From NCBI GenBank assembly GCA_050124795.1, contig JASFEO010000001.1:1-64000 (forward strand): a stretch of 64,000 nt of DNA. The letters run 5' to 3'. The notes under the pieces were generated by a model. The model had not been told where the DNA came from, did not search any database, and saw only the letters and a list, made by a program, of their open reading frames with translations. This DNA is from Candidatus Pacearchaeota archaeon. GTDB lineage: Archaea; Nanobdellota; Nanobdellia; Pacearchaeales; GW2011-AR1. Below, piece after piece: positions 38,650-58,928 of this stretch (position 1 is its first letter; each line of letters starts with the position of its first letter). The translations under genes and the position numbers were made by a program.

Positions 38650-39150
38650 ATGAAAGTAATACTTTGTGAAAAACTACCAAGAATTTTAAAGAATAAAAAA
38701 AAATTAGAGAAAACTCTAAATGTTAAAATTCAGAACAGAGGCAAAGAAGTTAAAATTGAAGGGAAAGGCGAAGATGAATTTATTGCTGAGAAAGTAATTG
38801 ATGCTCTTAATTTTGGTTTTTCTTATTCAGATGCAATCTCAATAAAATCTGAAGATTTTGATTTTGAAGTTATTAGTATAAAAGATTACACAAAAAGAAA
38901 AGATTTGAAATCAGTCAGGGCAAGGATAATTGGCGGGGGGGGGAAAACTTTGAAAGTGTTGTCAGACTTATCGCGTTGTTCTTTAGAATTAAAGGAAAAC
39001 TCAGTTGGCATAATTGGTCCGCCTGAGTGCATTCAAAACGCGATTGATGGAATTTCTTCAATTTGTCATGGCTCAAAGCAGTCAAATGTTTACAAACTTC
39101 TAGAAGAACATCAAATTAAAGAACCAGTTGATTTAGGTTTGAAGAAATAA
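38650..39150 (+). CDS. KH-domain ribosome biogenesis protein (Dim2/Pno1/KRR1-like)
   Basis: RARIIGGGGKT, GSKQSNVY; usual aIF-1A neighbour. Confidence 0.88.
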   Translation: MKVILCEKLPRILKNKKKLEKTLNVKIQNRGKEVKIEGKGEDEFIAEKVIDALNFGFSYSDAISIKSEDFDFEVISIKDYTKRKDLKSVRARIIGGGGKTLKVLSDLSRCSLELKENSVGIIGPPECIQNAIDGISSICHGSKQSNVYKLLEEHQIKEPVDLGLKK

Positions 39151-39201
39151 TGTCCCTTTAGTTCAGAAAGGTTTTATAAAAGATATTTATCTTATTAATT
39201 A

Positions 39202-39969
39202 ATGTATATTCAATTAGATAAAGAAAAACAAAAGTTAATCATAAAACAATCTATTGCTAAAGCTGGTTCTTATAGAAAATTAGCCAAAGAATTAAAGATT
39301 CCTCTTTCATCAATCTGCGCCTATGAAAATGGTAGAGTAATTCTTAAAGAAAGATTCCAAAAAATAATTAGTTTTTTAAAATTAAATCAAAGCAAATTAG
39401 ATTTCAAGGAATTAGATGACAACTGGAGACAAGTTATTGGGGGTAAAAATTGTGTTAAATCAAAAAAACAAAAAGGGACTTATGAGGAACAATTAAGAAA
39501 GGCTCAACAATCTGGAGCATTAAAATTAAAAGATTGGCATAAATCAATGAAGAAAAATAATCCTAGAAAATACTATGAAATGCAGCATTCTAAATTTAAG
39601 ATGATTGCAGGATATAAATTTATAGCAAAAAAAGGACATAAGGTTAGAAATCTCTTTGAAAAAAAGGTAGCAGATATTTTGCATGAATTAAATATTAATT
39701 ATGAATATGAGCCTTTGGTAAAATCAAGAGGGAAAAACGTCTTTCCTGATTTTGTGGTAAATAAAAAAACAATTTTAGAGTGCACTGCCTGGAGAAATGA
39801 GACAAAGGCATATCAATTAAGGGATAAGATAGAGTATTTAAAAAATAATTATCGTGTGTTTGTGGTGATTCCAAAAGGTTTATATAGATATTATCGGATT
39901 TTAGATAAACGTCTGATTCACGGATTAGATGAATTTGTCCCCGTAGCTCAGACTTTTCATTCGTCATAA
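39202..39969 (+). CDS. HTH + PD-(D/E)XK endonuclease-like protein overlapping tRNA-Asn
   Basis: SYRKLAKELKIPLSSICAYENG (HTH); FEKKVA...YEYEP...FPDF...ILEC. Confidence 0.75.
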   Translation: MYIQLDKEKQKLIIKQSIAKAGSYRKLAKELKIPLSSICAYENGRVILKERFQKIISFLKLNQSKLDFKELDDNWRQVIGGKNCVKSKKQKGTYEEQLRKAQQSGALKLKDWHKSMKKNNPRKYYEMQHSKFKMIAGYKFIAKKGHKVRNLFEKKVADILHELNINYEYEPLVKSRGKNVFPDFVVNKKTILECTAWRNETKAYQLRDKIEYLKNNYRVFVVIPKGLYRYYRILDKRLIHGLDEFVPVAQTFHSS

Positions 39970-40047
39970 AAAGCGAGGAAAAGGAGCAATTGGCAGAGCG
40001 CATGGCTGTTAACCATGGTGTCGTTGGTTCGAGTCCAGCCGGGGACG
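39937..40047 (+). tRNA. tRNA-Asn(GUU) with a 38-nt D-loop intron (39952-39989, position 15/16)
   Basis: Acceptor GTCCCCG/CGGGGAC; anticodon loop CTGTTAA; BHB motif GCTC-AG^A-CTTTTC...GAAAAG-GAGC-AA^T. Confidence 0.92.
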
Positions 40048-40101
40048 TTTTATATTTTCCAAAACAGATATTTATTTAAACTAAGAATTACTAACTATTT
40101 T

Positions 40102-49844: not shown

Positions 49845-49887
49845 TTTCTTAATTTTATCAGAACTCTTTTTCCTTTCAGGTTTTTTA

Positions 49888-50149
49888 TACAGACTCGGGA
49901 AGGTTGCTCAAAGCTCACATGCAGGCTACCTTTATTTTTTCTCAGCTCTGCGACCTGTTAAGCATCTGTGCAAATGTTTAGGGCTGCTACATTCCTGTCC
50001 TGACCCGGTTCGCAATTGCAAGATCAAAACAGACAAAGCGTCAACGTCAAAATAAAGACCTTCAAACTCACTTGTCACGTCCTTCCTTGCAGTTTGCCAT
50101 AAAGCCCGTTTGCAAATAGCGGAGGGCTAACCCGCCAACCTAGTCTGTA
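49888..50149 (-). ncRNA. ffs: Signal recognition particle (7S) RNA
   Basis: Helix-8 motif GGGTCAGGACAGGAATGTAGCAGCCC; terminal helix TACAGACT/AGTCTGTA; 5' Alu-like hairpins. Confidence 0.88.
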
Positions 50150-50201
50150 AAAATATTAAAAATAATTAGTTTTTAAAACTATGTTTTTGAGAATTTTCAA
50201 A

Positions 50202-58615: not shown

Positions 58616-58705
58616 AGTTTTATATAAAATCTCTTTTTTTAAAATTAATGAAATTGGGTTTAAATTCTAAAGATTTTTATATGGTTAATTTCTGATATCT
58701 TCAAA

Positions 58706-58808
58706 CGAGGGTGCCTACGTTGCTCCCAGCCACATTTGCGATTCTTTAAATTTACTTTCAGGATTTATTGCTAATGTAACTGCTCGGTCAAACTGTTAGC
58801 CCACTCCG
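58706..58808. repeat. Duplicated tRNA-Leu 5' end interrupted by a 70-nt stem-loop insert (58716-58785)
   Basis: CGAGGGTGCC and GGTCAAAC match tRNA-Leu; the insert on the minus strand reads CGAGC-AGTTACATT...AATGTGGCT-GGGAG. Confidence 0.7.
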
Positions 58809-58844: not shown

Positions 58845-58928
58845 GCGAGGGTGCCGGAGTGGTCAAACGGGCTGGACTTAAGATCCAGTAGCTTAGTGCT
58901 TGCGCAGGTTCAAATCCTGTCCCTCGCA
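58845..58928 (+). tRNA. tRNA-Leu(UAA)
   Basis: GCGAGGG/CCCTCGC-A; anticodon loop CTTAAGA; long variable arm. Confidence 0.96.

What the first reader, a model, noticed from the sequence alone, without database searches (positions are those of the whole stretch)
39202..40047. Nuclease gene that reads through a tRNA-Asn 5' exon and terminates inside its D-loop intron
Seen: the HTH/PD-(D/E)XK ORF ends ...EFVPVAQTFHSS*. Its last codons are the tRNA 5' exon (39937-39951), and its TAA (39967-39969) lies in the apical loop of a 38-nt BHB intron at the non-canonical position 15/16. Established: archaeal EndA cuts BHB motifs, and free-standing homing endonucleases can be paired with introns that protect their target. 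Inference: the nuclease and intron may form a collaborative homing unit targeting intron-less tRNA-Asn. tRNA processing (RNase P or EndA cleavage) would also remove the stop codon from a shared transcript, coupling nuclease expression to splicing. The intron 3' end GGAGCAA also matches the end of the insert upstream of tRNA-Leu, so this enzyme is a candidate mobiliser (speculative).
Basis: partly seen in the sequence, partly recalled or inferred. Interest (0 to 1): 0.78.

Follow-up and report, generated by a model that had tools for sequence, protein, structure and literature searches.

The report
Nuclease gene fused onto intron-bearing tRNA-Asn
A rare nuclease-like gene of tiny DPANN archaea nearly always sits directly on the front edge of the asparagine tRNA gene, usually one with an unusual D-loop intron, and behaves like a selfish mobile gene that may show how archaeal tRNA introns spread.

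Summary
ORF 39202-39969 (255 aa, HTH plus PD-(D/E)XK-fold domain) reads through the first 15 nt of tRNA-Asn(GTT) (39937-40047). It stops at a TAA in the apical loop of a 38-nt bulge-helix-bulge intron at position 15/16.

The arrangement is not a one-off:
- In 46 of 49 informative species-genome loci and 71 of 78 metagenome loci, homologues abut tRNA-Asn. A few abut tRNA-Thr instead.
- The stop lies inside the tRNA gene in 76 of 80 intact loci.
- The gene is rare: 9 of 151 genomes of the order and 10 of 301 of the phylum.
- It is a clean 0.8-kb insertion between a KH-domain gene and tRNA nucleotide 1, and it carries the tRNA's TATA box within its own codons.
- It is under purifying selection, decays to remnants, and shows at least one sharp ORF-sized lateral exchange.

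The D-loop intron accompanies the ORF far more often (7/9, 10/10) than it accompanies ORF-less tRNA-Asn (3/120, about 12/291).

Best reading (about 0.5): a free-standing homing-endonuclease-like gene with the intron as a linked passenger or protector. No cleavage activity is shown and the canonical catalytic Lys is absent. The position of the stop codon is not conserved, so coupling of expression to splicing is unsupported.

The parts
38650..39150 (+). KH-domain protein gene; the conserved left flank of the insertion site
   Evidence: Pfam KH_KRR1_2nd 8.7e-8 and KH_1 5e-6. In ORF-less relatives this gene ends about 40-70 nt before tRNA-Asn.
39172..39181 (+). TTTTATAAAA, a TATA-like box about 20 nt before the ORF's ATG; the ORF probably has its own promoter and a leaderless mRNA
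   Evidence: Read directly from the sequence. The promoter role is inferred.
39202..39969 (+). 255-aa ORF with an N-terminal HTH, a helical linker and a C-terminal PD-(D/E)XK-fold nuclease-like domain. Its last 11 codons and stop are tRNA gene sequence.
   Evidence: (AF2 pLDDT 93.9); dN/dS 0.12-0.18
39202..39411 (+). HTH (Cro/C1-like) domain, residues about 1-70
   Evidence: Pfam HTH_19 2.5e-4, below the cut-off. VIA-align Z 6.6-7.9 to HTH repressors over residues 4-70.
39583..39936 (+). Nuclease-like domain, residues about 128-245. Invariant R149, E153, D183, E193, T195 and W197.
   Evidence: Profile against PDB: T7 endonuclease I, E 5.9e-4, aligning E153/D183/E193 with E20/D55/E65 and T195 at the K67 place. 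VIA-align: Bax1 Z 9.9, I-Bth0305I catalytic domain Z 9.7, NGO0050 Z 9.1, Vsr Z 7.8.
39879..39886 (+). TTTATATA inside the ORF codons (x-L-Y-x), at -58..-51 from the tRNA; probable tRNA promoter TATA box embedded in the coding sequence
   Evidence: Conserved as TTTATATA/TTTAAATA across the 46 filled loci. The variable preceding codon always ends in T.
39898..39909 (+). ATTTTAGATAAA, a second AT-rich TATA-like stretch (codons I-L-D-K) at -39..-28
   Evidence: The position matches the BRE/TATA of empty sites (-33..-24).
39937..40047 (+). tRNA-Asn(GTT) gene interrupted by one intron
39937..39951 (+). 5' exon (tRNA nt 1-15), read by the ORF as V-P-V-A-Q
39952..39989 (+). 38-nt BHB intron at position 15/16 in the D-loop
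39967..39969 (+). TAA stop of the ORF, in the apical loop of the intron hairpin
39990..40047 (+). 3' exon (tRNA nt 16-73)
40048..40058 (+). T-rich tract TTTTATATTTT directly after the tRNA; a likely shared terminator
   Evidence: Read from the sequence. The role is inferred.

Best explanation
The ORF is a free-standing, homing-endonuclease-like selfish gene whose fixed home is the 5' edge of the tRNA-Asn gene in DPANN archaea.

Shown:
- It is a single-gene cassette of about 0.8 kb. It replaces the short promoter spacer between the upstream gene and tRNA nucleotide 1.
- It brings its own TATA box and re-creates a TATA box for the tRNA inside its last codons.
- It has no stop of its own, so it ends wherever the tRNA gene first offers one. 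Here that is the intron loop.
- It is rare, scattered among genera, under purifying selection, decays to C-terminal remnants, and has been exchanged laterally at least once as an ORF-sized block.

Inferred:
- The protein (HTH plus nuclease domain) cuts ORF-less alleles in or next to the tRNA gene, and break repair copies the ORF in.
- The 15/16 BHB intron lies 15 bp from the junction. It travels with the ORF by co-conversion and/or splits the D-arm target and so protects it. It outlives the ORF when the ORF decays.
- The host splicing endonuclease (EndA) removes the intron, so the only tRNA-Asn stays functional.
For: 1. Site fidelity. tRNA-Asn(GTT) lies at the ORF's 3' end in 46 of 49 informative GTDB loci; one more has tRNA-Thr(TGT). 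It does so in 71 of 78 informative metagenome loci. The adjacent tRNA is Asn in 8 and Thr in 2 of the 10 ORF-bearing genomes of the phylum sample. This holds where the upstream KH synteny is absent (L034-L050) and where the ORF-tRNA pair is inverted relative to KH (L021, L022, L031, L052).
2. Patchiness. Full-length copies occur in 9 of 151 genomes of the order (4 of 69 at >=90% completeness) and 10 of 301 of the phylum, one copy each. On a KH-gene tree the ORF state needs at least 15 changes among 62 rows.
3. Clean filled and empty sites. L015 (filled) and its sister L057 (empty) are homologous up to the KH gene end and again from exactly tRNA nt 1. In between, 813 nt stand against a 58-nt spacer. 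The 32 empty sites carry BRE/TATA at -33..-24. The 46 filled sites carry TTTATATA/TTTAAATA within codons at -58..-51, with a DNA-level constraint on the preceding wobble base.
4. Lateral exchange. Between L005 and L008 the KH protein is 61% identical and the ORF 92%. DNA identity jumps from 53-70% to 82-98% exactly over the ORF and falls again at the tRNA. L008's close relative L106 (KH 94%) has an ORF only 80% identical. The ORF data reject a KH clade with 99% SH-aLRT support (p-AU 0.0038).
5. Decay. L011, L033 and L043 have frameshifts. L042 and L173 have internal stops. L049, L051, L052 and G120 keep only C-terminal remnants next to the tRNA.
6. A functional protein. dN/dS is 0.12-0.18 in 9 pairs. 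The acidic triad E153/D183/E193 is invariant. The nearest folds include a bona fide homing-endonuclease catalytic domain, I-Bth0305I (Z 9.7, rmsd 2.7 A over 89 residues).
7. Intron linkage. See the counts. Intron state is clustered on the ORF tree: 6 changes against 13.3 when shuffled, 0 of 500 shuffles as low. Two of the three intron-only loci of the order are starred sisters of ORF+intron loci.
8. Intron spread. Homologous D-loop introns also sit in tRNA-Asp, Thr, Lys and Phe genes that share the D-arm sequence.
Against: - No nuclease activity, target site or homing event has been observed.
- The canonical Lys of (D/E)XK is an invariant Thr.
- Pfam, NCBIfam and Foldseek give no significant family assignment.
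- Most of the ORF tree agrees with the KH tree: clades A and D are recovered and C is not rejected. Pairwise identities correlate positively (Pearson 0.46-0.63). Inheritance is therefore largely vertical.
- ORF-only lineages are old and stable, and their D-arm sequences mostly also occur in ORF-less genomes. The intron cannot be a general requirement for self-protection.
- Many intron-bearing tRNA-Asn genes of the wider phylum have no ORF: about 12 of 21.
- Seven of 78 metagenome loci have the ORF without an adjacent tRNA.
- The independent-pairs test of ORF against intron is not significant.
- No relatives were found in viral contigs, so no vector is known.
- The KH protein is a short and weak proxy for the species tree.
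Confidence: 0.5

Rival explanations
1. An ancestral, vertically inherited accessory gene of DPANN archaea with a cellular job, such as a structure-specific nuclease or resolvase, or an HTH regulator. It merely happens to lie upstream of tRNA-Asn. It is often lost and occasionally swapped by ordinary homologous recombination between conserved flanks. On this view the intron association reflects shared ancestry.
For: - Purifying selection.
- The ORF and KH trees largely agree, with deep separation of the Micr-, Iain- and Aenigmarchaeota-labelled copies.
- One copy per genome.
- Weak similarity to Holliday-junction resolvases: T7 endonuclease I at E 5.9e-4 and phrog_9019 at 1.6e-3.
- The independent-pairs test is not significant.
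Against: - A prevalence of 3-6%, scattered over many genera, needs dozens of independent losses while selection keeps the gene intact in the few carriers.
- Linkage to the tRNA survives changes of upstream neighbour, inversion, and a switch to tRNA-Thr.
- There is an ORF-sized lateral exchange with sharp borders.
- This reading gives no reason for a 15- to 40-fold enrichment of a D-loop intron next to the gene.
Confidence: 0.25
2. The protein works on RNA. It binds or cuts the pre-tRNA (a cloverleaf is a four-way junction) and helps process or splice the D-loop intron, so the gene and the intron depend on each other functionally.
For: - Tight physical linkage to the tRNA, and similarity to junction-resolving enzymes.
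- The only EndA-domain hit in the genome is a 176-aa ORF. From recall, that size suggests the type with narrow specificity.
Against: - Intron-bearing tRNA-Asn genes exist without the ORF: 3 in the order sample and about 12 in the phylum sample.
- ORFs exist without the D-loop intron.
- The HTH domain and the acidic triad point to DNA as the substrate.
- Other non-canonical introns in the same genome have no such partner.
Confidence: 0.07
3. One reading: the stop codon in the intron loop matters. RNase P or EndA cleavage of a shared transcript removes the stop and ties nuclease synthesis to tRNA splicing.
For: The stop lies inside the tRNA gene in 76 of 80 intact loci, so any read-through mRNA does contain tRNA sequence.
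Against: - The stop position is not conserved. Of 57 intron-bearing loci it lies in the intron in 29, the 3' D-arm in 13, the anticodon loop in 7, beyond it in 4, at U8-A9-G10 in 3, and before the tRNA in 1.
- The tail after VAQTF varies in length and sequence.
- The tRNA has its own conserved TATA box inside the ORF.
- No RNA data were available.
Confidence: 0.05
4. A remnant of a virus or plasmid that integrated into tRNA-Asn.
For: tRNA genes are common integration sites. Partial duplications of the tRNA 3' half are seen downstream in L044 and L049.
Against: - The insertion is a single gene with no integrase and no flanking repeat of tRNA sequence.
- It lies on the 5' side of the tRNA.
- 0 of 205 pattern matches in viral contigs encode a relative.
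Confidence: 0.05

Closest known systems
Free-standing homing endonucleases that act together with an ORF-less intron ('collaborative homing'). Examples: F-CphI beside the psbA intron of cyanophage S-PM2, and T4 MobE promoting trans-homing of the nrdB intron. PMC6083498 and PMC2790892 were seen only as search listings with the start of each abstract; the rest is recalled.
   Same: A nuclease gene sits next to, not inside, a gene interrupted by a small intron that has no endonuclease of its own. Distribution is patchy, and gene and intron co-occur.
   Different: The host is a cellular archaeal genome, not a phage. The intron is a protein-spliced BHB intron, not a group I ribozyme. The target is a tRNA gene. 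The ORF overlaps the target gene and carries its promoter. No cleavage has been shown.
I-Bth0305I (EDxHD family) and I-Ssp6803I (a PD-(D/E)XK homing endonuclease in a tRNA-fMet group I intron). I-Ssp6803I is recalled, not tested here.
   Same: Restriction-endonuclease-like fold. VIA-align Z 9.7, rmsd 2.7 A, 89 of 98 residues, 22% identity to the I-Bth0305I catalytic domain. Modular nuclease plus DNA-binding region.
   Different: No significant sequence match. The motifs differ (E...PD...E-C-T here). These enzymes are intron-encoded and bacterial.
Phage T7 endonuclease I (junction-resolving enzyme)
   Same: The only sequence-level hit among solved structures (E 5.9e-4). R, E20, D55 and E65 align with R149, E153, D183 and E193.
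   Different: K67 is replaced by an invariant Thr. There is an extra N-terminal HTH and a helical region. The Foldseek match is weak (E 0.14).
tRNA intron transposition in Thermoproteales (Fujishima et al. 2010, as described in the review PMC4090602, section 17; passages read)
   Same: Near-identical BHB introns occur in different tRNA genes at non-canonical positions. Here the same D-loop intron type is found in the Asn, Asp, Thr, Lys and Phe genes.
   Different: No associated protein was known there; the review states that the mechanism is unknown. Here a candidate nuclease gene is physically linked to the intron.
Archaeal rRNA BHB introns that encode LAGLIDADG homing endonucleases, such as I-DmoI (recalled; PMC4496867 seen only in a listing)
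   Same: A BHB-spliced archaeal intron coupled to a DNA endonuclease that makes it mobile.
   Different: There the endonuclease is inside the intron and the host gene is rRNA. Here the intron is 22-41 nt, non-coding, and the ORF is outside it.

Membership tests
Archaeal bulge-helix-bulge (BHB) tRNA intron | Two 3-nt bulges on opposite strands, separated by a 4-bp helix, with the splice sites in the bulges | tested here: met
   Fold. 28 of 33 homologous introns share the register GCTC/GAGC plus bulges AGA and AA(T/C), with compensatory changes in the 6-bp inner helix. The outer helix is weak (relaxed form).
Archaeal bulge-helix-bulge (BHB) tRNA intron | Removal restores a canonical tRNA | tested here: met
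   ARAGORN finds tRNA-Asn(gtt), 73 nt, only after 39952-39989 is removed.
Archaeal bulge-helix-bulge (BHB) tRNA intron | The host encodes the splicing endonuclease EndA, and the intron is actually spliced | tested here: inconclusive
   One PF01974 hit above the cut-off at G000:C11:19984-20238. Splicing itself could not be tested because no RNA run holds the stretch.
PD-(D/E)XK nuclease superfamily / T7 endonuclease I-like | Restriction-endonuclease-like alpha/beta core | tested here: met
   AF2 model with pLDDT 93.9. VIA-align Z 8.1-9.9 to Bax1, I-Bth0305I, NGO0050, Can2, PspGI and BstEII over residues about 128-255.
PD-(D/E)XK nuclease superfamily / T7 endonuclease I-like | Catalytic motif E ... 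PD ... (D/E)-X-K | tested here: not met
   E153, P182-D183 and E193 are invariant or nearly so, but the K position is an invariant T195 (E-C-T) in 44 of 44 sequences. It is therefore a variant, not a canonical member. K154 and K202 are >=90% conserved and might substitute (inference).
Homing endonuclease gene (free-standing) | Sporadic distribution at one and the same genomic site, with empty sites in relatives | tested here: met
Homing endonuclease gene (free-standing) | Horizontal transfer, seen as incongruence with the host phylogeny | tested here: inconclusive
   One sharp ORF-sized exchange and one rejected clade (p-AU 0.0038). The other clades are congruent, and only a single short host marker was used.
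Homing endonuclease gene (free-standing) | Site-specific cleavage of the allele that lacks the gene | not testable with these tools
   Needs biochemistry.
Collaborative homing (endonuclease plus ORF-less intron) | Endonuclease gene and intron co-occur more often than expected | tested here: met
   Intron frequency with the ORF: 7 of 9 and 10 of 10. Without the ORF: 3 of 120 and about 12 of 291. Caveat: kin are not independent, and the independent-pairs test had a median p of 0.25.
Collaborative homing (endonuclease plus ORF-less intron) | The enzyme cuts at the intron insertion site and the intron blocks cutting | not testable with these tools
   Indirect evidence is mixed. ORF-only loci mostly have ordinary D-arms. 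One ORF-only clade has A15 at the insertion site, seen in 1 of about 125 ORF-less sequences.

The most novel reading that the evidence does not exclude
This gene family is the long-sought vehicle by which archaeal protein-spliced (BHB) tRNA introns spread. A free-standing endonuclease breaks tRNA genes at the conserved D-arm. Repair from an ORF+intron donor installs the ORF and the 15/16 intron together. Occasional ectopic repair seeds the same intron into other tRNA genes that share the D-arm (Asp, Thr, Lys, Phe). After the ORF decays, the intron remains as a scar that also immunises the site.
Probability: 0.3. Interest if true: 0.9.

Novelty: new variant of a known kind. Interest (0 to 1): 0.8.

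Why it matters
How non-canonical tRNA introns arrive in archaeal genes is an acknowledged open question. [quoted passage not shown] A 2026 preprint (10.64898/2026.10.13.758758, abstract read) concludes that how introns arrive remains open.

Here a specific, expressible 255-aa protein is physically and statistically tied to one intron position in one tRNA gene across several DPANN lineages. That turns the question into a bench experiment. It also shows an extreme case of gene overlap: a protein gene that carries the tRNA's promoter in its codons and borrows its stop codon from the tRNA gene.

My four literature searches found no description of such a tRNA-flanking nuclease in archaea. Subscription journals and supplementary files were not searchable.

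Tried and rejected
- Foldseek against the PDB gave no match at E <= 0.001.
- NCBIfam gave no family.
- Pfam gave only sub-threshold HTH_19, HTH_3 and Tox-REase-7.
- PADLOC gave one local hit, PDC-S68, 5.9e-7 over 50 residues. I did not interpret it.
- PHROGs gave weak endonuclease and resolvase hits only.
- Viral contigs: 0 relatives among 205 pattern matches.
- Sequencing runs: one DNA holder, which may be the source sample, and no RNA holder listed.
- A brute-force scan that deleted one interval at a time and ran ARAGORN across the genome was too permissive to map other non-canonical introns.
- My first general D-loop-intron pattern was mis-written and missed even the window. It was corrected.
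- L014 against L122 shows a recombination break just upstream of the ORF, but the identical tract runs at least 2 kb downstream. It is not ORF-specific and I do not count it as evidence.
- An integrated-element origin and an RNA-processing role were considered and ranked low (see rivals).
Full report
**Observation**

The window comes from a low-GC (about 32%) archaeon. It carries an archaeal SRP RNA, and homologues of the ORF are labelled Pace-/Woesearchaeota.

ORF 39202-39969 (+) encodes 255 aa ending ...EFVPVAQTFHSS*. ARAGORN and Rfam find no tRNA at this place. Deleting 39952-39989 from 39937-40047 yields a canonical 73-nt tRNA-Asn(gtt), while the unspliced stretch yields nothing. No other tRNA-Asn is called among the 36 tRNAs of the 1.06-Mb, 90%-complete assembly, so this interrupted gene is presumably essential.

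The RNA fold gives these elements:
- a 4-bp helix, D-stem GCUC paired with intronic GAGC
- a 5' bulge AGA
- an 11-bp interrupted inner hairpin whose loop CAUAAAAA contains the ORF's UAA
- a 3' bulge AAU

**The protein**

AlphaFold2 on a 44-sequence alignment gives a confident model with pLDDT 93.9.
- Residues about 4-70 are a Cro/C1-type HTH. Pfam HTH_19 scores 2.5e-4, below the cut-off. VIA-align gives Z 6.6-7.9.
- Residues about 128-255 have the restriction-endonuclease fold. VIA-align gives Bax1 Z 9.9, the catalytic domain of the homing endonuclease I-Bth0305I Z 9.7, NGO0050 Z 9.1 and Vsr Z 7.8.
- The only sequence-level hit among solved structures is T7 endonuclease I (E 5.9e-4). It aligns R149, E153, D183 and E193 with the T7 active site. 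The place of the catalytic K67 is an invariant Thr.
- From recall, Vsr-like and EDxHD nucleases also lack that Lys and are active. The absence is therefore a caution, not a disproof.
- dN/dS of 0.12-0.18 in nine pairs shows that the protein is kept functional.
- The family is small. A profile search of 1.84 billion cluster representatives finds 52 at E <= 1e-30 and 131 at E <= 1e-10.

**A conserved gene-tRNA junction**

The C-terminus ...GLDEF-VPVAQTF is conserved in most homologues. VPVAQ is simply tRNA nucleotides 1-15 read in frame.

| Set | Result |
|---|---|
| 50 GTDB loci | 49 informative: 46 tRNA-Asn(GTT) at the ORF end, 1 tRNA-Thr(TGT), 2 other tRNAs 54 and 277 nt away |
| 80 metagenome loci (many duplicate the GTDB loci) | 78 informative: 71 tRNA-Asn, 7 no adjacent tRNA |
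| 10 ORF-bearing genomes among 301 of the phylum | 8 abut tRNA-Asn, 2 abut tRNA-Thr(TGT) |

Among 80 non-duplicate intact loci the stop codon lies inside the tRNA gene in 76, but not at one place. It falls in the D-loop intron (29), the 3' D-arm (16), the anticodon-loop TAA (10), beyond the anticodon loop (10), or the universal U8-A9-G10 read as TAG in another frame (11). What is conserved is the fusion to tRNA nucleotide 1, not the stop in the intron loop.

**A rare insertion at a fixed site**

In 151 genomes of the order, full-length copies occur in 9: G000, G149, G063, G022, G006, G010, G105, G103 and G106. G120 holds remnants. The other hits match only the N-terminal HTH.

The order shares the synteny KH-domain gene, then tRNA-Asn, then nitroreductase. 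In ORF-less genomes the KH gene ends 40-70 nt before the tRNA.

The sister pair L015 (filled) and L057 (empty) lose homology just after the KH gene and regain it at exactly tRNA nt 1. Between these points, 813 nt stand against a 58-nt spacer.

Promoters differ between the two states:
- Empty sites (32) carry a BRE/TATA, AA(C)TTTAAATA, at -33..-24.
- Filled sites (46) carry TTTATATA/TTTAAATA within codons x-L-(Y/N)-x at -58..-51. The variable preceding codon always ends in T, which is a DNA-level constraint.
- Filled sites also have a second AT-rich box at -39..-29.
- In L031, L032 and L036 the ORF's TAA lies inside the canonical TATA box.

The ORF thus carries the tRNA promoter in its coding sequence. 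It has its own TATA-like box at 39172-39181, about 20 nt before the ATG (the promoter role is inferred).

**Mobility against vertical descent**

Evidence for transfer:
- L005 and L008 share 92% ORF identity but only 61% KH identity.
- Their DNA identity rises from 53-70% to 82-98% exactly over the ORF and drops at the tRNA.
- L106 is a close relative of L008 (KH 94%) but has an ORF only 80% identical.
- The ORF alignment rejects a KH clade with 99% support, made of L007, L013, L031 and L036 (p-AU 0.0038).
- ORF presence needs at least 15 changes on the KH tree.
- Decayed copies exist, and they keep the promoter-bearing 3' end.

Evidence for vertical descent:
- Two other KH clades are recovered and one is not rejected.
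- Copies labelled as other DPANN phyla form a separate half of the tree.
- Identities correlate positively.

I read this as long residence with loss and occasional re-invasion, as expected of a homing-endonuclease life cycle. The KH protein is a weak host marker.

**The intron**

28 of 33 parsed D-loop introns share the BHB register. The inner helix shows compensatory pairs: CTTTTC/GAAAAG, CTATTT/AAATAG, CAGATT/AGTCTG, CAAAGT/GCTTTG, CGGCGC/GTGTCG and CAGAGT/GCTCTG.

Order sample (22 further genomes matched neither tRNA-Asn pattern):

| State | Genomes |
|---|---|
| ORF plus intron | 7 |
| ORF only | 2 |
| Intron only | 3 |
| Intron-less tRNA-Asn, no ORF | 117 |

Phylum sample:
- All 10 ORF carriers have the intron in the adjacent tRNA.
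- About 12 of 291 ORF-less genomes have it in tRNA-Asn. Ten were parsed by script, two were read by eye, and one more at a contig edge is undetermined.

Further points:
- Intron state is clustered on the ORF tree: 6 changes against 13.3 when shuffled.
- Two of the three intron-only loci of the order are well-supported sisters of ORF+intron loci. One of those sisters has an ORF that is already frameshifted.
- A phylogenetically independent-pairs test had too few pairs: same direction 2.6, opposite 0.0, median p 0.25.
- The same intron type also occurs, without an ORF, in tRNA-Asp(GTC) of G149 and G123. The G123 copy is nearly identical over its 3' half to tRNA-Asn introns of other genomes.
- It also occurs in Thr, Lys and Phe genes elsewhere in the phylum.

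**Mechanism**

Shown:
- the overlap and the BHB intron
- the fixed insertion site
- the embedded promoter
- rarity, decay and purifying selection
- one clear lateral exchange
- the enrichment of the intron next to the ORF

Inferred:
- The protein cleaves ORF-less tRNA-Asn loci and is copied in by repair.
- The intron, 15 bp from the junction, is co-converted with it and may also protect the D-arm target.

ORF-only lineages have ordinary D-arms, so protection cannot be the whole story. Self-immunity through the insertion itself, with the intron as a hitch-hiker, fits better. The idea that splicing controls nuclease expression is not supported. The GGAGCAA link to tRNA-Leu is chance.

**Novelty**

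Four literature searches found no archaeal tRNA-flanking nuclease of this kind. A review and a 2026 preprint both state that the route by which archaeal tRNA introns arrive is unknown. The closest analogue is collaborative homing in phages (listings only). I therefore rate this a new variant of a known kind, of high interest, with the mechanism about even odds. Supplementary files and subscription journals could not be searched.

Noticed in passing
window 58705-58716 and 58845-58928: About 140 nt upstream of tRNA-Leu(TAA) lies a partial copy (ACGAGGGTGCC) of that tRNA's 5' end. It may be an old att-like duplication or a remnant of a rearrangement.
   Followed up: no
G000:C4:61381-61650 (-), locus L002: A 98-aa ORF that matches only the N-terminal HTH part of the family (E 5.5e-10) lies about 100 nt upstream of tRNA-Val(GAC) (c[61211,61282]). 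Similar HTH-only hits, in ORFs of 85-350 aa, occur in 34 of the 151 genomes of the order.
   Followed up: partly
G000:C4:64615-64723: ARAGORN calls this 'tRNA-Ser(tga) with intron'. By eye it looks like tRNA-Thr(TGT) with a non-canonical intron of about 36 nt after the D-arm. Several other ARAGORN intron calls in this genome look doubtful (C11:10318-10441, C16:7189-7281, C4:18264-19199 with an 841-nt 'intron').
   Followed up: partly
L044 (3247-3370) and L049 (2695-2899): A tandem partial duplication of the 3' half of tRNA-Asn lies directly downstream of the gene. This is the usual footprint of an integrative element at that tRNA.
   Followed up: no
L184, L186, L188, L035, L042 and L185: tRNA-Asn and tRNA-Thr genes of other orders carry two to four introns each (D-loop, anticodon stem, anticodon loop, T-arm). 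Standard tRNA finders would miss them.
   Followed up: no
L014 against L122 (L014 about 2294-2413): Two contigs are 100% identical from just upstream of the ORF for at least 2 kb downstream, but only 82-98% identical upstream, with an indel at the break. This is a strain-level recombination break or an assembly chimera at the left edge of the ORF.
   Followed up: partly
window 49887-50150 (-): Archaeal SRP RNA at 98 bits, just above the gathering score of 96.5, with a shortened helix. It confirms the archaeal origin.
   Followed up: no
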